From Escherichia phage IrisVonRoten, in the sequence record MZ501075: a stretch of DNA of 64,000 nucleotides. One strand, written 5' to 3'. The position numbers and the translations under genes are program-made. The notes beneath the pieces were generated by a model. That model had not been told where the DNA came from. It saw only the letters and a list, made by a program, of their open reading frames with translations, and ran no database searches. Numbering within the stretch: the first letter of the stretch is position 1; each line of letters opens with the position of its first letter. Below, in pieces: positions 33,292-43,847 of the stretch.

Positions 33292-33320
33292 TTGCTAATT
33301 TATTAAGTTATCTGTATAAT
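33292..33320 (+). promoter_or_regulatory. T5-type early promoter
   Basis: TTGCTA, 17-bp spacer, TATAAT. Confidence 0.7.
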
Positions 33321-33350: not shown

Positions 33351-33668
33351 ATGACTTTTCATATTTTGATTGATGATGTGCGTAATCTTCACGGAATGGA
33401 CATTATCATTCGAACCCCAGAAGCCGCTGTAGAGTTTCTGAATAAAACTGATACCACAGGCCACTTCGTTTATATGGATAATGACTTGGCTGTAGATGGT
33501 ATGGAAGGTTATCAAATTCTTCGTTTACTCTTAGAATTTGGGCAGAGACCAAAGAAAGTGGTACTAGTAACCTCGAACCCAGTAGCTAAGCAAAATATGC
33601 GTAATGATTTGCTTGACTTAGGGTATAAAGAAAATCCCAATCGTGTTGAATATGATTGGCAGGAGTAA
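33351..33668 (+). CDS. hypothetical protein
   Basis: 105-aa ORF after promoter. Confidence 0.55.
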   Translation: MTFHILIDDVRNLHGMDIIIRTPEAAVEFLNKTDTTGHFVYMDNDLAVDGMEGYQILRLLLEFGQRPKKVVLVTSNPVAKQNMRNDLLDLGYKENPNRVEYDWQE

Positions 33669-34361: not shown

Positions 34362-34805
34362 ATGGAAGAGAATATTTTAGATGTTTTGCGTAGAGCTTTG
34401 CAGGATTCTAAGTTTAATGGTTCTGATAAAGAAGTCGCTAAAAGCTACCAGACCATAATCGGGGATCTTCAGCGTATTGATAAAGATTTCATCACTTCTG
34501 AACAATTTGTGTCTTATCTCAAAGCTCAACTAAAAAGCATTAACCAGATGAAAGCTAAACTTCATGGTCAAGATCTTGATAGTTATAGCTTGCAGTCCGC
34601 TCAGTATGAATACATTCTAAATAAGTGGTTGCAGGAGTATCTGCCTCCTCAGTTATCTGATACTGAGATTCGTAAATACTTTGCAGAATTAGTTAAGCTA
34701 AACCCTGGAATTACAAAAGGTATGCTGATGAAAGCGATTAAGGAAGAATTTCCTGGGCGTTATGATGGTGGTACTGCTGCTCAGATTGCTGGCGAATTTA
34801 ATTAA
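34362..34805 (+). CDS. GatB/YqeY-domain protein
   Basis: C-terminal NPGITKGMLMKAIKEEFPGRYDG pattern. Confidence 0.6.
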   Translation: MEENILDVLRRALQDSKFNGSDKEVAKSYQTIIGDLQRIDKDFITSEQFVSYLKAQLKSINQMKAKLHGQDLDSYSLQSAQYEYILNKWLQEYLPPQLSDTEIRKYFAELVKLNPGITKGMLMKAIKEEFPGRYDGGTAAQIAGEFN

Positions 34806-34813
34806 AAATTTAT

Positions 34814-34842
34814 TTGCTAAATGCCTATAAATTCTGTATAAT
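34814..34842 (+). promoter_or_regulatory. T5-type early promoter driving the ~900-nt untranslated region upstream of the SPFH gene
   Basis: TTGCTA, 17-bp spacer, TATAAT. Confidence 0.7.
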
Positions 34843-35065
34843 ATATTCATAAATTAGAGAACAGCGAGCCGATTACGCTGAGTGCAGAATCCCAACCGGA
34901 GCGCATTGAATAGAGTCGGTGGGTTAGTTGGAAAACTAGTACACAGGGGGCGGCAATCCCGGTTAGTGGCTAGAACGTGTAAAATGGGGCGTCTGAAACC
35001 TCTCCCCTAAACTCTTCTTTAATTTACTGATAGTGGGGTGTGGAAATCACTTATGTAGTAACACT

Positions 35066-35138
35066 GCCGATCTAGTATAAAACGGTATTATCAAGCCGTA
35101 ACTGGTGGAAGATGTAGGTTCGAATCCTACGGTCGGTA
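35066..35138 (+). ncRNA. tRNA-like element (acceptor stem + canonical T-arm, no canonical anticodon arm)
   Basis: GTAGG-TTCGAAT-CCTAC T-arm; 7-bp acceptor pairing GCCGATC/GGTCGGT; no 5-bp/7-nt anticodon stem-loop found. Confidence 0.3.
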
Positions 35139-35640
35139 AGAACTGGATAACTGGTGCTTTTAATGTAAAAGCTTCCGAGGTTAGTTGCGCACTGCCTAAA
35201 CCACGCGGTAGTTGGTTCCAGACTAACCAACCAGTCTGCTGAATAGTTTTATTACGATTTAACTATGTCCAGGCTAAAGAAGAACTTTAGAAGGTATTCT
35301 AGGATAGTGAAGTTCTTTCTCCATATCGGAGTAGTTTTTCAAACTATCCACAAAGTGGGAAATGCTGGCATGAGAGATGCCACTAATGGTGCACAATAGC
35401 ACAGGTAATTCGCGATAACTCCTGTTGAGTAGCAGCAAAAAGGTGGGGAGTCATGACCCTAACCTAACCGAGTCCTCAGTATACCGCAGGACATAACCAC
35501 TAAGTCACCTTGACTTAAACTGGAAAATAATAGACGTTACTGTATTTTGTCTTGAAATACTTAATGAGTGAGACTTATGACTCTCCCGGTATCGTCTGTA
35601 TTTTTAAGAGTTTTTACGAGAGTTCTTAAAAATACTTAAA

Positions 35641-35715
35641 CGGGGTGTAGTCTAAGGGAGAGGCAGGAGTCTTCTAAATTCCTTTATGCAGGTTCGAATC
35701 CTGTCACCTCGGCCA
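35641..35715 (+). tRNA. tRNA-Arg (anticodon UCU)
   Basis: Cloverleaf folded by hand: acceptor CGGGGTG/CACCTCG, anticodon loop CTTCTAA, T-loop TTCGAAT, encoded CCA. Confidence 0.7.
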
Positions 35716-35749
35716 ATTTTATTAACTGTAACTAAAACAAAGGAAATAT

Positions 35750-36697
35750 ATGTCTAATACTAAAAATATGAAAGAACTGACTTCTGAGCAAAAAGTAATT
35801 CGCACTATTAAACGTTGGAGTATTGGTGCTGTAGTTGGTTTAGCAGGTTTAATCCTAGCTTTTAATTCATATACTATTGTTTCTGATGGTACGGTTAAAA
35901 CCCAAACATTTCTAGGTAAAGTAGATCCTAACCCAGTATTACCTGGTTTCCATCTTGTAAACCCATTTGCATCTTTCGATACTTTTAGTACAAAAGATAT
36001 TGCTGTAAAATTAGATAAACTTCAGGTTCCTAGCCAGGATAAGTTTAAATCCACTGTTGACCTGACTGTTATGTTGCAGTTTGATGGTTCTAAGGCACCG
36101 ATCAACCGTATTAATGCGGGTACTCAAGATCAGGCTCTAGATAAGTATGTAACTGAAAAATTACTGTCTACTATTCGTGAGTTTGGTAAGTCTGTACCTA
36201 AAGCACAAGATTTGTTTGATGCTAAAATTCAAGCACAATTGCAAACTGCAATTCAACAGGAAGTTGAAGAGTATGCACGCCCCTATGGTTACACAGTTAA
36301 GCAAGTGTTCCTTCAGGATATTACATTGCCACCGGTAATTATGGAACAGGTACAGAATACCAAAGTTCGCGAAGAACAAGTTAATGCTGCGAAAGCTGAA
36401 TTAGCTCGCGTTGAACAAGAAGCACAGCAGAAGGTTAAACAAGCAGAAGCAGATCGTGAAGCTCGTAACAACCAAGCTATTGCAAACGAACGTGATGCAG
36501 ATGCTAAACTGTATGCAGCTAAGAAAGAAGCTGAAGCTAACGCTGCTCTGCAACGTACCATTACTCCTGAGATGATTCGCTGGAAGCAACTAGAAGTTGA
36601 AATGATTCGTGCTCAGAAGTATCAAGGTGGTGTACCGCAGACTGTGGTTGGCACTGGTTATGATGGCCAGATGATTATGGATATGCGTAACAAGTAA
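35750..36697 (+). CDS. SPFH/band-7 (prohibitin/HflKC-like) membrane protein
   Basis: N-terminal TM helix, SPFH-like core, Ala/Gln-rich coiled-coil C-terminus. Confidence 0.7.
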   Translation: MSNTKNMKELTSEQKVIRTIKRWSIGAVVGLAGLILAFNSYTIVSDGTVKTQTFLGKVDPNPVLPGFHLVNPFASFDTFSTKDIAVKLDKLQVPSQDKFKSTVDLTVMLQFDGSKAPINRINAGTQDQALDKYVTEKLLSTIREFGKSVPKAQDLFDAKIQAQLQTAIQQEVEEYARPYGYTVKQVFLQDITLPPVIMEQVQNTKVREEQVNAAKAELARVEQEAQQKVKQAEADREARNNQAIANERDADAKLYAAKKEAEANAALQRTITPEMIRWKQLEVEMIRAQKYQGGVPQTVVGTGYDGQMIMDMRNK

Positions 36698-36721
36698 TAC
36701 CCACACGTAATATTCGAAGTA

Positions 36722-36757
36722 AGCCCTGCGTTCCCTGGAGAGCGCAGGGCTTTTCTG
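36722..36757 (+). terminator. rho-independent terminator after SPFH gene
   Basis: AGCCCTGCG...CGCAGGGCT hairpin followed by TTTTCT. Confidence 0.7.
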
Positions 36758-36772
36758 TATTTAAGATAAGAG

Positions 36773-36806
36773 AAAAGCCCCTAAGTCTTTCGACTAGGGG
36801 CTTTTT
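36773..36806. terminator. bidirectional terminator hairpin
   Basis: GCCCCTAAG...CTAGGGGC hairpin flanked by A-tract upstream and T-tract downstream. Confidence 0.6.
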
Positions 36807-37022: not shown

Positions 37023-37439
37023 TTAGGAGTTATTACCACCATTTTGAGCTTTTGCAACTTGGCTTTGGCAGAAGCTATTAAACTTACCCATAAGTGATAC
37101 AAGCTGCTTCCCATCCTCTGTCTTTGCGAAGTCTTCGAAAAGGGCTAGTACTGCTTGTCCTTCCGTAGAAACCTGCGGTTGTTGGGTTTGCTGCTGAACT
37201 TGCTGCTGAGGCACCTGTTGCTGCATTTGTTGAGGCATTTGCGACTGCCCGCTCATTTGCTGCATCATTTGCATAGGACTCACACTTCCAGGGTTTTGCT
37301 GGAAGTGTTGCTGCATCTGTTGCGCTTCTGCTAAACGCTGTTGCAACTGTTGTAGGTAAGGATTATCCAGACCCGGAACGGGCTGCTGGGAGCCCATTGG
37401 TTGATTAAATCCGTTGTTTACAAAACCATATTTACTCAT
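37023..37439 (-). CDS. Gln/Met-rich low-complexity protein
   Basis: ATG after GGGGAGGAG SD; long PQQ/MQQ tract. Confidence 0.6.
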   Translation of the reverse strand: MSKYGFVNNGFNQPMGSQQPVPGLDNPYLQQLQQRLAEAQQMQQHFQQNPGSVSPMQMMQQMSGQSQMPQQMQQQVPQQQVQQQTQQPQVSTEGQAVLALFEDFAKTEDGKQLVSLMGKFNSFCQSQVAKAQNGGNNS

Positions 37440-37460: not shown

Positions 37461-38441
37461 TTAAGCCGGCAGTTTAGCCTGCAGACCAGCCAGAGTCTGA
37501 GTGATAGCACCAAGACTTACAGCGATTTGATTAATTACCTGACCGTTAGCACCACTACCTGCAGCGATTGCTTCGCGCAGACGGCATTCATTCAGTTCGT
37601 CCTGGATACGTGCAGTAGTTACACCAGCGATTGCAGTCTGAAGCTCACAGCAACATTCAGCAAGCTGACGTTCGATAGCGTTCTGGTTAGCACACATCTG
37701 AGCCTGAACAGCGGCAAACTGGTTGTTGGTCTGAATAGACTGCTGGAAAGCAATCTGAGCAGAGTCAAACTTATCTTGAGCACGTGCGATCTGGTTAGCA
37801 GCGAAAGATTGATCCATCTGACGAGAAAGATCGAATTGACCCTGAATAACGTTACGAGTTTCAGCACAGATCTGGTTTGACAGATTAGCACCTGTACCAT
37901 AGATAGTAGTCAGAACTTGCTGAGTGCTAGCAGCTTGAGCAGCTCCCACACCGTTTACTGCGCTTAGAACAGCCCCAGTGCCCTGGTTAGCTTCTGTACG
38001 AGTAGTATTGATTGCAGCTAGAATACTTGCAGTATCTTGGTTAGAAAGGATCGCGTCCACAGCAGTCCCTTCAGCGGCAACGCCAGCACCACGGCCAAAA
38101 CCACCAAAACCACCAAATCCGCCCGTTAATAGAGCACCGATTAGGATAGCTCCGAATAGACCCATACCTTCTCCACCGAAAGCACTTGCGTTAGCTGGGA
38201 ATGCACCCATGCCAGGGAAGCCGTTAGTAAATACGTTTACTGGTTCTTGCATTTTATGTTTTCCATATTTATGACAATGTTCATCATAGTCATCTTCTTC
38301 ATCTTTATCATCGTGTTCACGATGTTCTTCTTCGTAGGCTTTGACTTTCTCCCACTTTTTCTTATCTGATTCCTCGTGACGGTGCAGTTCTGCTGCTACG
38401 CTAGCGACGGTTTCAGGACTCTTAGCTACTTCTTCTGTCAT
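37461..38441 (-). CDS. glycine-zipper membrane-associated protein with acidic His-rich N-terminus
   Basis: Start at ATG (MTEEVAK) after AGGAGGTG SD; GLFGAILIGALLTGGFGGFGGFG segment; Ala/Gln/Asn-rich C-terminus with CCC. Confidence 0.6.
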   Translation of the reverse strand: MTEEVAKSPETVASVAAELHRHEESDKKKWEKVKAYEEEHREHDDKDEEDDYDEHCHKYGKHKMQEPVNVFTNGFPGMGAFPANASAFGGEGMGLFGAILIGALLTGGFGGFGGFGRGAGVAAEGTAVDAILSNQDTASILAAINTTRTEANQGTGAVLSAVNGVGAAQAASTQQVLTTIYGTGANLSNQICAETRNVIQGQFDLSRQMDQSFAANQIARAQDKFDSAQIAFQQSIQTNNQFAAVQAQMCANQNAIERQLAECCCELQTAIAGVTTARIQDELNECRLREAIAAGSGANGQVINQIAVSLGAITQTLAGLQAKLPA

Positions 38442-38503
38442 TTTTTGACACCTCCTAGTATATAGAAAATGTGTGTCTCTTTGATCACTCATCCATAACA
38501 TAT

Positions 38504-38707: not shown

Positions 38708-39226
38708 ATGACTGTTGATGAACTAACAGAACACCTCTTATCTAGAGGGTTTGATGCAGATAAATATCATTGCTGGTTAAGCCCGGAAGGATGGCTAACA
38801 GTACCATTGTATGACTTCTCTGGGATGTTGAGAGGCTATCAGACGTATAATCCTTCTGCTCCAAAAGGTCATGGTAAATCTCCTTTTGAAGCTAAGTATT
38901 TTACTTATTCTACTACACAGTGTGTATGGGGGCTGGAAACTCTCAATGGGGATGAAAAAGTAGTATTGGTTGCGGAATCTGTATTTAAGGCTGTAGCATT
39001 ACATAACGCTGGTTATCCAGCCCTGGCAATGTTGGGTTCTTCTCCAGGAAAAGCGTTGTTAAAGCAATTGAAATTACTACCTTTTAAATTGGTAGCTGTT
39101 GGGGATAATGATCCTGCTGGTGAAAAATTTGCTAGACAATTAAATGGATTTGTTTCTCCTGTAGATGTGGATGAGATGTCTACCGAAAACTTGAAAAATT
39201 TTCTTGCTATGAAGCTAAATTTCTAA
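38708..39226 (+). CDS. small TOPRIM-like domain protein
   Basis: VLVAESVFKAV...VAVGDNDPAGEKFA resembles TOPRIM E...DxD; start placed after GAGAGAGGA SD. Confidence 0.5.
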   Translation: MTVDELTEHLLSRGFDADKYHCWLSPEGWLTVPLYDFSGMLRGYQTYNPSAPKGHGKSPFEAKYFTYSTTQCVWGLETLNGDEKVVLVAESVFKAVALHNAGYPALAMLGSSPGKALLKQLKLLPFKLVAVGDNDPAGEKFARQLNGFVSPVDVDEMSTENLKNFLAMKLNF

Positions 39227-39247
39227 TATAATATATCTTATAAATTC

Positions 39248-39342: not shown

Positions 39343-39420
39343 GGTTCTCAAGCTCATATGGTATGAGCACCCGGCTCATAACCGGAAGGTACGTAGGTTC
39401 GAATCCTCGGGGAGCCACCA
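39343..39420 (+). tRNA. tRNA-Met (anticodon CAU; elongator or Ile2-type)
   Basis: Acceptor GGTTCTC/GGGAGCC, D-stem GCTC/GAGC, anticodon loop CTCATAA, weak T-stem. Confidence 0.6.
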
Positions 39421-42887: not shown

Positions 42888-42894
42888 TAAAATT

Positions 42895-42999
42895 TCAGTG
42901 CAGAACACGGAGCTAGCAATTCGGAAGTGCTGACTCATGATAAGCTGCCTATGTACTTGCTAAGCGGTCGTGTCCAAGACTCGGACTCTTGCACTGAAA
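42895..42999 (+). ncRNA. structured RNA domain closed by 10-bp long-range helix
   Basis: TTTCAGTGCA at 42895 pairs with TGCACTGAAA at 42990; no ORF. Confidence 0.3.
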
Positions 43000-43009
43000 A
43001 CAATCAAAC

Positions 43010-43130
43010 ATTCTAGCGTGGTTGATGGGGAAACCAGCTTGGCGAGGGCAGAAGCTCGTTCGATTCGAGTGAAAGAATGGTTCTCGTAAGTCCGCACAAG
43101 TGATAACAGGTTCGAGTCCTGTCTAGAATG
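43010..43130 (+). ncRNA. long tRNA-like RNA (~121 nt) with duplicated T-arm
   Basis: Perfect 7-bp acceptor ATTCTAG/CTAGAAT; D-arm TGGT/ACCA; two T-arm hairpins (TTCGATT and TTCGAGT loops); no canonical anticodon arm. Confidence 0.35.
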
Positions 43131-43145
43131 ACACTATAAAGTTTA

Positions 43146-43257
43146 CTTATTATGTAGGTTCCGATAGATCGGCGGGTCTATTCTGGCATTTAAGAGAGGT
43201 CTCGCAAACTTCTTTGTCAGCCGTGGGGTTGGTAGCCTCCAGGTGGCCTACACAATA
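43146..43257 (+). ncRNA. structured RNA domain closed by ~12-bp long-range helix
   Basis: CTTATTATGTAGG pairs with CCTACACAATAAG; internal hairpins; no ORF. Confidence 0.3.
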
Positions 43258-43279
43258 AGTAAATTTATTAAAAATTCAT

Positions 43280-43308
43280 TTGCTATTTTGCTTAATTCTC
43301 TGTATAAT
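43280..43308 (+). promoter_or_regulatory. T5-type early promoter
   Basis: TTGCTA, 17-bp spacer, TATAAT. Confidence 0.7.
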
Positions 43309-43340
43309 ATATCTTATAAAGTGAAGAGAAGGAAAGCTAA

Positions 43341-43499
43341 ATGAAGTATAAAATTGCATCAGTATTCATGTGTACTTGGGTTATTCCTATAGTAATAGTA
43401 GGGTTTAACATAGATAACTTTTCTATCATAGAAAAGTTATTAGGACTAAGTACAGGCTTTACAATGCTAGGATTAAGCATGTTGTGGCTGAAGAAATAA
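43341..43499 (+). CDS. small hydrophobic membrane peptide (52 aa)
   Basis: ATG after GAAGAGAAGGAAAG SD; two predicted TM segments. Confidence 0.5.
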   Translation: MKYKIASVFMCTWVIPIVIVGFNIDNFSIIEKLLGLSTGFTMLGLSMLWLKK

Positions 43500-43503
43500 T
43501 TTT

Positions 43504-43580
43504 CTCCGATTAGCTCAATTGGCTAGAGTACACCGTTTGGGGCGGTGGGGTTGAAGGTTCGAGTCCTTCATTGGAGACCA
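43504..43580 (+). tRNA. tRNA-Pro (anticodon UGG)
   Basis: Acceptor CTCCGAT/ATTGGAG, D-stem GCTC/GAGT, anticodon stem CACCG/CGGTG loop TTTGGGG, T-loop TTCGAGT. Confidence 0.8.
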
Positions 43581-43587
43581 AACAATT

Positions 43588-43662
43588 GCGGGTGGGAGGC
43601 ATAGAGTTCTTCTTAGTCTCATAAGCTAAGTAAGTCCAGGGCAGTACTGGAACCCGCTACCA
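43588..43662 (+). ncRNA. possible tRNA-like hairpin RNA
   Basis: GCGGGTG/ACCCGC terminal pairing with ACCA tail, but no canonical T-loop. Confidence 0.2.
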
Positions 43663-43682
43663 TTTTAATAGGGGATTTCGAA

Positions 43683-43847
43683 ATGAAAGTATTTCGATTA
43701 GTAGTAAGTGATCGACGTTCTAGCAAAGATCGTTCGAAGTATACCTTAGCCCATTATGGTAAAGATGAAAATGAAGTAATGGCTGAATTTGGTATTAACC
43801 ATCCTTACTTAAAAGTCTACTCTATTAAGGAAGTTTATGCTTATTAA
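43683..43847 (+). CDS. hypothetical small protein (54 aa)
   Basis: ATG after AGGGGA. Confidence 0.35.
   Translation: MKVFRLVVSDRRSSKDRSKYTLAHYGKDENEVMAEFGINHPYLKVYSIKEVYAY

What the first reader, a model, noticed from the sequence alone, without database searches (positions are those of the whole stretch)
34814..36697. SPFH/band-7 protein gene preceded by a ~900-nt promoter-driven untranslated RNA region
A strong T5-type promoter at 34814-34842 is followed by about 900 nt with no credible ORF before the SPFH-domain gene. That region contains one canonical tRNA-Arg(UCU), a tRNA-like element lacking an anticodon arm, and further hairpins. SPFH proteins organise membrane microdomains and regulate proteases, and are unusual in a phage early operon. 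The arrangement suggests a processed polycistronic RNA in which structured RNAs and the membrane-protein mRNA are co-transcribed.
Basis: partly seen in the sequence, partly recalled or inferred. Interest (0 to 1): 0.65.

Follow-up and report, generated by a model that had tools for sequence, protein, structure and literature searches.

The report
Phage T5 RNAX stable-RNA locus
This is the already-annotated T5-phage unit [quoted passage not shown]; the SPFH gene is ordinary, but RNAX is a large, conserved, folded RNA whose function is still unknown.

Summary
There is a consensus early promoter (34814-34842), a 944-nt stretch with no ORF of 60 aa or more, a tRNA-like element (35066-35138), tRNA-Arg(UCU) (35641-35715), a 315-aa SPFH gene (35750-36697) and terminators.

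It is not new. The window is a T5-like phage (99.8% identical to chee24). GenBank records of T5, BF23 and DT57C annotate the same unit as promoter P16-17, misc_RNA rnaX ("stable RNA with unknown functions"), tRNA-Arg and T5.080. The viable T5 st0 mutant lacks the whole unit.

The "leader of the SPFH mRNA" reading is not supported:
- Klebsiella T5-like phages keep an RNAX-like region without the SPFH gene.
- T4-like and ~90-kb phages carry 75-80% identical SPFH genes without RNAX or a tRNA.
- A tRNA gene lies between RNAX and the ORF.
- SPFH proteins are common in phages (phrog_200).

What I add: RNAX is a modular structured RNA.
- In its central domain (35350-35515), 15 of 26 base pairs show compensatory changes (20 of 26 in a model-fitted alignment).
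- The tRNA-like cloverleaf covaries but has only a 3-4-bp, 6-nt-loop mini anticodon arm.
- No Rfam family matches.

Its size and tRNA-island setting resemble GOLLD and ROOL RNAs. Function unknown.

The parts
34814..34842 (+). Early sigma-70 promoter, the homologue of T5/BF23 'P16-17': -35 TTGCTA at 34814-34819, -10 TATAAT at 34837-34842, with an A/T-rich upstream tract
   Evidence: Consensus scan, 10 of 12 matches with a 17-nt spacer. Annotated as promoter P16-17 in T5 AY543070 and BF23 AJ604530. 34806-34860 is 96% identical to T5.
34856..35640 (+). RNAX (rnaX): about 785-nt non-coding stable RNA. The 5' end is taken from the BF23 annotation; by spacing from the -10 the start could be about 34849. 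The 3' end abuts tRNA-Arg.
   Evidence: 97.8% identical over 944 nt to BF23, where misc_RNA rnaX is annotated 'stable RNA with unknown functions'. The same feature is annotated in T5 (719 nt) and DT57C (636 nt). No ORF of 60 aa or more. No Rfam family other than tRNA.
34862..34880 (+). 5'-proximal hairpin CAGCG-AGCCGAUUA-CGCUG
   Evidence: Read directly from the sequence. Conserved in Epseptimavirus 5' regions; the blast match of the promoter-proximal ~70 nt extends to Klebsiella phages. Its role as a 5' stabiliser is inference.
34861..35015 (+). Optional 5' module ('module A'), present in chee24/BF23-type phages and deleted in T5/DT57C-type phages. Contains the conserved motif UGAAUAGAGUCGGUGGGUU (34907-34925).
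   Evidence: Blast maps show query positions 56-204/214 missing in T5, DT57C and others. Comparison of 5' regions.
35030..35065 (+). Highly conserved leader AUAGUGGGGUG...ACUUAUGU...AACACU, immediately 5' of the tRNA-like element
   Evidence: Conserved across Tequintavirus, Epseptimavirus and Klebsiella T5-like phages, even where the tRNA-like cassette is replaced.
35066..35138 (+). tRNA-like element: acceptor, D and T arms, and a 3-4-bp, 6-nt-loop mini-arm (35095-35106) in place of the anticodon arm. No encoded CCA.
   Evidence: Rfam tRNA 34.5 bits with the anticodon arm skipped. ARAGORN odd call. On 24 distinct sequences, 84.8% of cells are paired, with compensatory changes in the T, D and mini-arm stems; acceptor mismatches at 1-72 and 5-68 are chronic. 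Alternative cassettes occur in relatives.
35145..35172 (+). Trailer motif GGAUAACUGG plus hairpin GCUUUUA-AUG-UAAAAGC (35156-35172)
   Evidence: Hairpin kept with different stems in relatives: GGUUC/GAACC, GCUUC/GAAGC, GCUUAU/AUAAGC. Judged by eye, not formally tested.
35278..35331 (+). Middle block: AGAAGAACUU...AAGUUCUU enclosing hairpin UAGAA-GGUA-UUCUA (35288-35301), then CUCC-AUAUC-GGAG (35319-35331)
   Evidence: Shared with Klebsiella phages, where the inner stem is UAGGC-GGUA-GCCUA (two compensatory pairs). Few distinct sequences; not formally tested.
35350..35515 (+). Central domain of RNAX: AGUGGGAAA; H1 35366-35382; H2' 35401-35425 (loop UCGCGAUAAC); H4 35441-35465 (loop holds the invariant palindrome GUCAUGAC, 35450-35457); H5 35472-35492; AUAACCAC; H6 AGUCA-CCU-UGACU 35503-35515
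   Evidence: MAFFT alignment of 18 distinct sequences: 92.3% of cells paired, 15 of 26 pairs with changes on both sides, 0 of 500 shuffles as high, slid controls 25-42%. Covariance model R1 gives a single hit in the window (197 bits) and hits in all 8 Klebsiella-type loci (E about 3e-5). Model-fitted alignment of 30 distinct sequences: 93.9% paired, 20 of 26 pairs compensatory.
35516..35597 (+). Invariant UAAACUGGAA followed by a variable cassette with conserved CUUAAU in the middle
   Evidence: Four cassette variants among lineages. No consistent consensus helices could be established.
35598..35635 (+). Terminal hairpin of about 17 bp, 5 nt upstream of tRNA-Arg. No U-tract follows, so it is not an intrinsic terminator.
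   Evidence: RNAalifold consensus hairpin, nearly invariant. One compensatory U-A to C-G change in Klebsiella phages. Strongest local fold, z about -2.4 to -3.0. Its role as a 3' protector after RNase P cleavage is inference.
35641..35715 (+). tRNA-Arg(UCU), with CCA encoded
   Evidence: ARAGORN. Rfam tRNA 49.3 bits. Annotated tRNA-Arg in T5, BF23 and DT57C.
35741..35745 (+). Ribosome-binding site AGGAA, 4 nt upstream of the ATG (as placed in the BF23 record; AAGGA at 35740-35744 gives a 5-nt spacing)
   Evidence: Sequence. An RBS is annotated at the equivalent place in BF23.
35750..36697 (+). SPFH/band-7 membrane protein, 315 aa, orthologue of T5.080: N-terminal hydrophobic segment (about residues 23-44), SPFH domain 52-225, Ala/Glu/Lys-rich C-terminal region
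   Evidence: Pfam PF01145 E=2e-17, 64.2 bits against a cutoff of 23.6. PDB sequence search: QmcA 8z5g E=1.8e-6, prohibitin-2 E=8.9e-5. phrog_200 E=5.5e-86. No PADLOC match. T5 record notes: 'single transmembrane domain', 'IPR001107 band 7'.
36721..36806 (.). Two G+C-rich hairpins with T-runs (36721-36752 and 36773-36806), the end of the unit. They lie just downstream of the SPFH stop codon, as does the bidirectional terminator annotated in T5/BF23.
   Evidence: Terminator scan. 'Efficient bidirectional rho-independent terminator' is annotated in T5 and BF23 just downstream of the SPFH gene; I did not map those coordinates onto these two hairpins.

Best explanation
The locus is the chee24/BF23-type copy of a known phage T5 early transcription unit: promoter P16-17, rnaX, tRNA-Arg(UCU), T5.080 (SPFH), bidirectional terminator.

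RNAX is an autonomous, modular, structured non-coding RNA gene of about 785 nt here. Related phages carry versions from about 640 nt to about 1.3 kb. It is not a regulatory leader of the SPFH gene.

Proposed mechanism:
- Shown by sequence and annotation: host RNA polymerase starts at the strong early promoter and reads through RNAX, the tRNA and the SPFH ORF, because no terminator intervenes.
- Inferred from standard tRNA processing: RNase P cleavage at the 5' end of tRNA-Arg releases RNAX, and 3' trimming of the tRNA frees the SPFH mRNA.
- Inferred: the 17-bp terminal hairpin 5 nt from the RNAX 3' end, and a 5' hairpin, would protect RNAX from exonucleases. This would explain why the T5 annotators list it as a stable RNA.
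- Shown by covariation: RNAX folds into conserved helices that display invariant single-stranded or loop motifs (AGUGGG, GAUAAC, GGAGUCAUGACC, AUAACCAC, UAAACUGGAA). It carries a swappable tRNA-like module that cannot decode.
- Inferred, low confidence: RNAX acts in trans as a scaffold or decoy for a host or phage RNA-binding factor, such as tRNA-processing or tRNA-targeting proteins. That would give a conditional benefit in natural hosts while being dispensable in laboratory strains.

The SPFH protein is an ordinary, horizontally mobile phage accessory membrane protein that happens to be the next gene.
For: Identity and annotation:
- 99.8% identical to chee24 and 97.8% to BF23 over the RNAX region.
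- rnaX, P16-17, tRNA-Arg and the SPFH ORF are annotated in T5, BF23 and DT57C.

Non-coding:
- No ORF of 60 aa or more.
- Indels of 1-4 nt and module swaps in relatives break all the small ORFs.

Structure:
- Central domain: 92.3% of cells paired, 15 of 26 pairs with compensatory changes, 0 of 500 shuffles as high, slid controls 25-42%.
- With Klebsiella phages added through the covariance model: 93.9% paired and 20 of 26 pairs compensatory.
- G-U/U-G pair types occur on the + strand reading, which fits an RNA-level constraint better than a DNA-level one.
- tRNA-like cloverleaf covaries in the T, D and mini-arm stems.

Autonomy from SPFH:
- RNAX-like region without an SPFH gene in Klebsiella T5-like phages.
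- SPFH without RNAX or a tRNA in other phage families.
- SPFH gene split in bastian while RNAX is kept.
- Homing-endonuclease-sized ORFs are inserted between RNAX modules in relatives and do not interrupt the conserved blocks.

One transcription unit: no terminator-like site between 34842 and 36721 on the + strand.

Dispensable: the T5 st0 mutant lacks the region (no blast or model hit).
Against: - No expression or processing data were available. 'Stable RNA' rests on GenBank annotation, and I found no accessible paper describing RNAX.
- Thermodynamic signal is weak: whole-region z = -1.71, and most 90-nt windows are not distinguishable from shuffles.
- Many conserved pieces are invariant, including H6, the terminal hairpin and the loop motifs. 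They say nothing about structure and could equally be DNA-level signals.
- Modules are lost or swapped in some phages. T5 lacks 34861-35015. L097 and L048 replace the tRNA-like element. L094 has a deletion in the D arm.
- The sequences are closely related and one alignment was fitted to the model, so the covariation statistics are inflated to an unknown degree.
- The trans-acting decoy or scaffold function is speculation.
Confidence: 0.75

Rival explanations
1. One reading: the 900 nt are a processed 5' leader functionally coupled to the SPFH gene. Structured RNAs and the membrane-protein mRNA would form one functional module, with the leader controlling SPFH expression or timing.
For: Same strand, one promoter, and no terminator before the SPFH stop codon. 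The order RNAX, tRNA-Arg, SPFH is conserved in Tequintavirus and most Epseptimavirus genomes.
Against: A complete tRNA gene lies between RNAX and the ORF, so processing should sever them. RNAX is conserved without SPFH in Klebsiella T5-like phages. SPFH homologues elsewhere lack any such leader. Epseptimaviruses insert an extra 201-nt ORF between the tRNA and SPFH. SPFH is disrupted in bastian while RNAX is intact.
Confidence: 0.1
2. RNAX is a graveyard of decayed tRNA genes and spacer DNA with no function of its own. Its conservation reflects recent common ancestry and recombination between T5-like phages.
For: It contains a degenerate tRNA with a mismatched acceptor stem. It shows lineage-specific deletions, duplications and cassette swaps. 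The region is dispensable. Thermodynamic z-scores are weak.
Against: Compensatory changes maintain at least five helices across lineages whose intervening sequence has diverged completely. Short motifs stay invariant inside otherwise variable sequence. Only one tRNA-like remnant is detectable.
Confidence: 0.08
3. The conserved motifs act at the DNA level, as operator-like palindromes, recombination or homing-endonuclease targets, or replication signals, rather than in RNA.
For: Invariant palindromes GTCATGAC (35450-35457) and AGTCA-N3-TGACT (35503-35515). Cassettes are swapped between strongly conserved flanks, and HNH endonuclease genes lie in or near the region in relatives.
Against: The helices around these motifs covary, including through G-U pairs that are complementary only on the + strand transcript. 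The motifs do not recur elsewhere in the window above chance. This reading could coexist with an RNA function.
Confidence: 0.07
4. RNAX is a functional analogue of the giant ornate phage RNAs GOLLD and ROOL: a large RNA of tRNA islands that self-assembles into a higher-order particle, perhaps through its invariant self-complementary loop.
For: GOLLD and ROOL are phage- or prophage-encoded and often near tRNA islands. They are non-essential and of unknown function. GOLLD has a conserved 3' region, a variable 5' region, and sometimes tRNAs in a linker (PMC12286853, PMC5737381). RNAX shares these traits: 0.64-1.3 kb, inside the T5 tRNA island, ends at a tRNA, has a tRNA-like module in the more variable 5' half and a conserved 3' half, and is dispensable. 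The H4 loop carries an invariant 8-nt palindrome.
Against: No Rfam match to GOLLD, ROOL or any other large RNA, even at E up to 10. Only 166 nt have formally supported structure. No pseudoknots or multistem junctions have been established. Oligomerisation is untested.
Confidence: 0.15

Closest known systems
rnaX / RNAX of phages T5 (AY543070), BF23 (AJ604530), phage 5 (AJ604531) and DT57C (KM979354)
   Same: The same locus by homology and synteny: promoter P16-17, RNAX, tRNA-Arg(UCU), SPFH ORF (T5.080 / 'ORF trn 1.1'), bidirectional terminator. 97.8% identical to BF23 over 944 nt.
   Different: The length differs through modules: T5 and DT57C lack 34861-35015, and T5 has an ~87-nt duplication around AGTCACCTTGACT. 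The chee24-type GenBank records do not annotate RNAX.
GOLLD and ROOL large ornate RNAs of phages and prophages
   Same: Large non-coding RNAs encoded by phages next to or inside tRNA islands. Dispensable, function unknown. Conserved core plus variable parts, with tRNA sequences sometimes embedded.
   Different: No match between sequence/structure and the Rfam models. Different hosts and phage type: virulent T5-like siphoviruses of Enterobacteriaceae. No evidence yet for pseudoknots, multistem junctions or nanocage assembly.
Other small stable RNAs of phage tRNA clusters: T5 RNAI, RNAIII, RNAIV, RNA1, RNA2 and RNA2H; also T4 species 1 and 2 RNAs (the T4 RNAs are from my own knowledge)
   Same: Non-tRNA stable RNAs co-transcribed and co-processed with phage tRNAs, with unknown functions (T5 annotation).
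   Different: Those are 100-170 nt. RNAX is 4-8 times larger and multi-domain. The covariance model of its central domain finds no paralogue elsewhere in the window.
tRNA-like modules without decoding function, such as the tRNA-like domains of tmRNA, YrlA (bacterial Y RNA), mascRNA and plant-virus TLS (from my own knowledge)
   Same: Acceptor/T-arm/D-arm mimicry with the anticodon arm truncated or replaced.
   Different: This one is embedded inside a long RNA, with conserved flanks and interchangeable cassettes. No CCA is encoded, and the acceptor stem has chronic mismatches. None of those Rfam families matched.
SPFH/band-7 family (E. coli QmcA, HflK/C, prohibitins) and phage SPFH ORFs (44RR ORF098c, Aeh1 ORF064c, RB43 ORF139c)
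   Same: Pfam Band_7 domain, an N-terminal membrane anchor and a helical C-terminal region. 75-80% identical to proteins of 142-180-kb (T4-like size) and ~90-kb phage contigs. SPFH ORFs in T4-like phages were reported in 2006.
   Different: The function in phage infection is untested. No match to known defence-system models.

Membership tests
T5-type rnaX (RNAX) locus | Sequence homology to an annotated rnaX | tested here: met
   97.8% identity over 944 nt to BF23, whose record annotates rnaX. 92-99% identity to T5 over the shared parts.
T5-type rnaX (RNAX) locus | Synteny: P16-17 promoter upstream, tRNA-Arg(UCU) abutting the 3' end, SPFH ORF next, bidirectional terminator | tested here: met
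T5-type rnaX (RNAX) locus | Accumulates as a stable RNA in infected cells | not testable with these tools
   Only the annotation text 'stable RNA with unknown functions' is available. No paper was found.
tRNA (Rfam RF00005), for 35641-35715 | Score above the gathering threshold, full cloverleaf, anticodon | tested here: met
   49.3 bits against 29. ARAGORN calls Arg(UCU). CCA is encoded.
tRNA (functional decoder), for 35066-35138 | 5-bp anticodon stem with a 7-nt loop | tested here: not met
   The covariance model skips 18 nt at the anticodon-arm positions. Comparative analysis gives a 3-4-bp stem with a 6-nt loop, replaced by a long hairpin or by another cassette in relatives.
tRNA (functional decoder), for 35066-35138 | Regular 7-bp acceptor stem and a CCA end | tested here: not met
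   Pair 1-72 is G-U or unpaired. Pair 5-68 is unpaired in 18 of 24 distinct sequences. No CCA follows the discriminator base.
tRNA-like fold, for 35066-35138 | D and T arms with a conserved T-loop, maintained by covariation | tested here: met
   T stem 99% paired with UA-to-CG and AU-to-GC changes. D stem shows UA-to-GC and AU-to-UA changes. Rfam tRNA 34.5 bits, above the gathering score of 29.
GOLLD / ROOL RNAs | Match to the Rfam covariance model | tested here: not met
   No such hit at E up to 1 on 5.5 kb, nor at E up to 10 on the 891-nt region.
GOLLD / ROOL RNAs | Phage-encoded, at a tRNA island, several hundred nt or more | tested here: met
   About 785 nt, inside a cluster of 25 tRNA genes found by ARAGORN, plus one more at 39343-39417 found only by Rfam, in a T5-like phage.
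GOLLD / ROOL RNAs | Elaborate covarying structure with multistem junctions and pseudoknots | tested here: inconclusive
   Six or seven local helices in the 166-nt central domain and the tRNA-like cloverleaf are supported. No long-range helices or pseudoknots were established.
GOLLD / ROOL RNAs | Homo-oligomeric nanocage | not testable with these tools
   Needs biophysics or cryo-EM.
Cis-regulatory 5' leader of the downstream ORF | Contiguous with the regulated ORF and co-occurring with it across genomes | tested here: not met
   A tRNA gene intervenes. RNAX occurs without SPFH and SPFH without RNAX.
SPFH / band-7 (Pfam PF01145) | Domain score above the Pfam gathering threshold | tested here: met
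   64.2 bits against 23.6, E=2e-17, profile positions 13-176 of 176. Sequence relatives among solved structures are QmcA and prohibitin-2.
SPFH / band-7 (Pfam PF01145) | Membrane anchoring and assembly into a large oligomeric ring or cage | not tested
   A hydrophobic N-terminal segment is visible in the sequence, and T5 notes record it. No structure prediction or oligomer analysis was run.

The most novel reading that the evidence does not exclude
RNAX is the founding member of a third class of giant structured phage RNAs of tRNA islands, functionally analogous to GOLLD and ROOL. It would be carried by the genetically tractable virulent coliphage T5 and several hundred sequenced relatives. 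It has an embedded, interchangeable tRNA-like module and an invariant self-complementary loop (GUCAUGAC) that could drive multimerisation, or docking to the equally invariant AGUCA/UGACU hairpin.
Probability: 0.2. Interest if true: 0.8.

Novelty: already known. Interest (0 to 1): 0.4.

Why it matters
The arrangement itself has been in GenBank for about twenty years, and the SPFH gene is a common phage accessory gene. As stated, the finding adds little.

What remains open is RNAX. It is a 0.64-1.3-kb RNA driven by a strong early promoter and conserved in more than 500 sequenced phage genomes. Its helices are kept by compensatory mutation, it is absent from Rfam, and no function is known.

GOLLD and ROOL pose the same puzzle: large, non-essential phage RNAs beside tRNA genes. 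They lack a convenient genetic system. T5 has deletion mutants and defined hosts, and its tRNA region is already linked to defence evasion (PARIS, DRT9). If RNAX belongs to the same functional world, T5 would make the question directly testable.

Tried and rejected
- Rfam at permissive thresholds, twice: only tRNA matches. The other hits (SpF41, Hrs13, mir-3167, G-CSF SLDE) are far below their gathering scores and were rejected as chance.
- Whole-region and sliding-window thermodynamic folding: weak z-scores, not informative.
- RNAalifold on a MAFFT alignment of the 3' domain: recovered only two almost invariant hairpins. The variable cassette is misaligned between lineages, and single-sequence folds of the four variants do not agree on a closing helix. 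I dropped the long-range helix (35530-35536 with 35593-35599) that I had proposed by eye.
- A possible closing helix AGUGG/CCACU for each 'unit': the residues are invariant, so it cannot be tested.
- Searches for more distant relatives. An IMG/VR pattern scan gave only 29 T5-like contigs. The metagenome scan gave 10 contigs, all T5-like or Klebsiella-type. The signature scan of 185,579 bacterial and archaeal genomes gave 4 hits with no extended similarity, so these are chance. A search for loci related to the neighbouring hydrolase gene gave only close relatives.
- Paralogues of the conserved motifs or of the central domain elsewhere in the window: none above chance.
- Small-protein coding: the 42-54-aa ORFs are not conserved, because of frame-breaking indels and module swaps.
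- SPFH as a defence-system component: no PADLOC match.
- Literature searches for RNAX, T5 stable RNAs or a T5 transcriptome: nothing on RNAX.
- Structure prediction of the SPFH protein was not run. Pfam, PHROG and PDB sequence matches were judged sufficient.


Full report
**Where the window comes from.** The 2.8 kb around the finding is 99.8% identical to Escherichia phage chee24 and its sister isolates. It matches 479 phage records, almost all T5-like (Tequintavirus and Epseptimavirus). The finding lies at the edge of the phage's tRNA island. ARAGORN finds 25 tRNA genes between 35065 and 48592, all on the + strand.

**Check of the observation.**
- A TTGCTA-17-TATAAT promoter lies at 34814-34842.
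- 34806-35749 has no ORF of 60 aa or more in six frames; the largest are 42-54 aa.
- This is the second-longest ORF-free stretch in the window. Random sequence gives far longer gaps, so the stretch is unusual only against the phage's dense coding.
- tRNA-Arg(UCU) is canonical: 35641-35715, Rfam 49.3 bits.
- 35066-35138 scores 34.5 bits as tRNA, but only because the model skips the anticodon-arm positions.
- The 315-aa ORF (35750-36697) has a full-length Band_7/SPFH domain, E=2e-17.
- Its nearest solved relatives by sequence are E. coli QmcA and prohibitin-2.
- No terminator-like site occurs on the + strand before 36721.

**It is already annotated.**
- T5 (AY543070) carries, in the same order and orientation: 'promoter P 16-17'; misc_RNA rnaX 'RNAX, stable RNA with unknown functions' (719 nt); tRNA-Arg; T5.080 ('contains single transmembrane domain'); and an 'efficient bidirectional rho-independent transcription terminator'.
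- A second T5 record calls the ORF a band-7 protein and marks the tRNA-like element as a tRNA pseudogene.
- BF23 (97.8% identical over 944 nt) and DT57C annotate rnaX as well, at 784 and 636 nt.
- The T5 st0 deletion mutant lacks everything between T5p066 and T5p079, including this unit. It gives no blast or covariance-model hit. The unit is therefore dispensable in the laboratory.
- I found no accessible paper describing RNAX.

**RNAX and SPFH are not a functional pair.**
- In Klebsiella T5-like phages (two of the three annotated records are classified as Sugarlandvirus), a ~1.3-kb ORF-free region follows the endolysin gene.
- That region has the same promoter-proximal sequence, tRNA-like element, ordered motifs and terminal hairpin. 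It then runs into unrelated small ORFs, and no SPFH gene is present in the fetched stretch.
- Conversely, proteins 75-80% identical to this SPFH protein are encoded in 142-180-kb (T4-like size) and ~90-kb phage contigs. There they are preceded directly by ORFs, with no tRNA within 3 kb.
- In phage bastian the SPFH gene is split while RNAX is intact.
- Epseptimaviruses insert a 201-nt ORF between the tRNA and SPFH.
- The protein belongs to phrog_200, E=5.5e-86.
- SPFH ORFs in T4-like phages were tabulated in 2006.
- It matches no PADLOC defence model.
- SPFH is therefore a common, mobile phage accessory gene, and RNAX is not its leader.

**RNAX is modular.**
- Blast maps and alignments show conserved blocks separated by lineage-specific cassettes.
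- 34861-35015 is present in chee24 and BF23 and absent in T5 and DT57C.
- T5 has an ~87-nt duplication around AGTCACCTTGACT.
- Some relatives carry 160-190-aa ORFs between modules; one record annotates an H-N-H endonuclease there. These never fall inside the conserved blocks.
- Short motifs stay invariant in otherwise diverged sequence: AUAGUGGGGUG, GAUAAC, AGUGGGAAA, GGAGUCAUGACC, AUAACCAC, AGUCACCUUGACU-UAAACUGGAA and CUUAAU.

**The tRNA-like element.**
- I compared 24 distinct sequences.
- The T stem is 99% paired, with UA-to-CG and AU-to-GC changes.
- The D stem changes from UA to GC and from AU to UA.
- The arm that replaces the anticodon arm is a 3-4-bp stem (CG-to-GC change) closed by a 6-nt loop, GUAACU or UUCACC.
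- The acceptor stem is chronically imperfect: G-U or G-A at 1-72, and U-U at 5-68 in 18 of 24 sequences.
- No CCA is encoded.
- Klebsiella phages and one metagenomic Tequintavirus-like contig replace the mini-arm by a long bipartite hairpin, which itself shows a compensatory variant (GGGGA/UCCCC to GGAGAU/AUCUCC).
- Two Epseptimavirus lineages replace the whole cloverleaf by a different hairpin between the same conserved flanks.
- One metagenomic contig has lost part of the D arm.
- It is thus a tRNA-shaped, non-decoding and exchangeable module.

**The central domain (35350-35515).**
- On a plain MAFFT alignment of 18 distinct Tequintavirus and Epseptimavirus sequences I tested six helices with 26 pairs.
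  - 92.3% of cells are paired, against 83.3% in shuffles; 0 of 500 shuffles reach the observed value.
  - 15 pairs have changes on both sides, against a shuffle mean of 6.5.
  - Sliding the 3' partners by 1-3 columns gives 25-42% paired and 1-4 such pairs.
- Helix H5 (35472-35476 with 35488-35492) covaries at all five pairs.
- Two very divergent Epseptimavirus versions (L031, L099) keep the same order of helices and motifs with almost entirely different stem sequences.
- A covariance model of this domain finds one copy in the window (197 bits). It finds weak but consistent matches (21-22 bits, rough E about 3e-5) in all eight Klebsiella-type loci.
- In the model-fitted alignment of 30 distinct sequences, 93.9% of cells pair and 20 of 26 pairs show compensatory change.
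- That alignment leans towards the model and the sequences are related, so these numbers are upper bounds. The MAFFT-based result stands on its own.
- G-U/U-G pair types on the + strand reading favour an RNA-level constraint over a DNA-level one.

**What could not be shown.**
- The terminal hairpin (35598-35635) and the AGUCA-CCU-UGACU hairpin are nearly invariant and therefore uninformative.
- The cassette between them has four variants with no agreed fold.
- Global and local folding energies are unremarkable.
- No long-range helix or pseudoknot was established.
- No Rfam family other than tRNA matches.
- No homologue was found outside T5-like and Klebsiella T5-like phages.

**Most likely mechanism.**
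- Shown by sequence and annotation: host polymerase starts at the early promoter and transcribes RNAX, tRNA-Arg and the SPFH ORF up to the terminators.
- Inferred from standard tRNA maturation: RNase P cleavage at 35641 gives RNAX a 3' end 5 nt after a 17-bp hairpin. Together with the 5' hairpin (34862-34880), this would make it exonuclease-resistant, which fits its 'stable RNA' label.
- Shown by covariation: RNAX folds into helices that present invariant loops.
- Unknown: what those loops bind.
- My working guess, at low confidence, is a trans-acting scaffold or decoy for tRNA-handling or tRNA-targeting factors. Three observations prompt it:
  - RNAX carries a tRNA-shaped module.
  - It lies in a tRNA island already implicated in evading tRNA-cleaving defence (PARIS; PMC11464382).
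  - It is dispensable in laboratory hosts.

**Comparison with known systems.**
- By homology this is RNAX.
- By analogy the closest things are GOLLD and ROOL: large phage or prophage RNAs near tRNA islands, non-essential, of unknown function, with a conserved core plus variable regions. tRNAs are sometimes embedded in the GOLLD linker, and both form nanocages (PMC12286853, PMC5737381).
- RNAX fails the membership test, because it does not match their models. The resemblance in genomic setting is nonetheless notable.
- The invariant 8-nt palindrome in the H4 loop invites a test for oligomerisation.

**Verdict.** The arrangement is already known, and the SPFH part is ordinary. The residual interest lies in RNAX as an uncharacterised large structured RNA in a classic model phage.

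Noticed in passing
window 33351-33668 (+): The 105-aa protein two genes upstream matches Pfam cREC_REC, 'Cyclic-phosphate processing Receiver domain' (E=3.8e-15). This domain is associated with RNA-repair systems, and here it sits at the edge of the tRNA island.
   Followed up: no
window 34362-34805 (+): The gene ending one base before the ORF-free stretch (34806), 8 nt upstream of the -35 hexamer, encodes a YqeY/GatB-tail-like protein (Pfam E=1.7e-5, just below the cutoff; phrog_1460 'tRNA amidotransferase', E=3e-47). It is syntenic with RNAX in Tequintavirus and Epseptimavirus but not in Klebsiella phages. It is a candidate RNA-binding partner.
   Followed up: partly
window 39343-39417 (+): Rfam finds a tRNA (40.3 bits) that ARAGORN did not list. 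It corresponds to the T5 tRNA annotated Ile(CAU), next to tRNA-Ser(GCU).
   Followed up: no
window 42888-43836: This is the longest ORF-free stretch in the window (949 nt), also inside the tRNA island and containing tRNA-Pro. In T5 the region between tRNA-Asp and tRNA-Pro carries other annotated stable RNAs (rna2, RNAIV) and promoter P13a; I did not align it to this stretch. Not analysed for structure.
   Followed up: no
window 33292-33320, 34814-34842 and 39204-39232 (+): Three promoters have identical hexamers and spacing (TTGCTA-17-TATAAT). About 50 nt around each are 77-87% identical to one another and to further copies in relatives. They form a repeated early-promoter cassette.
   Followed up: partly
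loci L029, L031, L099 (ORF just before tRNA-Arg); L032, L098 (ORF just after the promoter); L028: ORFs of 160-190 aa are inserted between RNAX modules in some relatives. One record annotates 'H-N-H endonuclease P-TflX' here. Cassette swapping between conserved flanks may be driven by homing.
   Followed up: partly
loci L034-L047: The SPFH protein is 75-80% identical between T5-like siphoviruses, 142-180-kb (T4-like size) contigs and ~90-kb phage contigs. This implies recent horizontal transfer of the gene between unrelated virulent phage families.
   Followed up: partly
loci L085/L090, L089, L093, L094 (metagenome contigs): These are natural recombinants within RNAX. L089 is a Tequintavirus-type RNAX carrying the Klebsiella-type long-arm tRNA-like cassette. 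L085/L090 are hybrids whose T stem acquires an A-C mismatch. L094 has a D-arm deletion.
   Followed up: partly
window 37023-37439 (-) and 37461-38501 (-): Convergent genes downstream of the terminator encode a Gln-rich 138-aa protein, mislabelled 'cAMP-dependent protein kinase catalytic subunit' in several records, and a Gly/Ala-rich 346-aa protein. Neither has a Pfam match (phrog_7894 and phrog_8119, unknown function).
   Followed up: no
window 35450-35457 and 35503-35515: The invariant H4 loop AGUCAUGAC is complementary to both strands of the invariant hairpin AGUCA-CCU-UGACU 50 nt downstream. An alternative or tertiary pairing between them is possible, but cannot be tested by covariation.
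   Followed up: no
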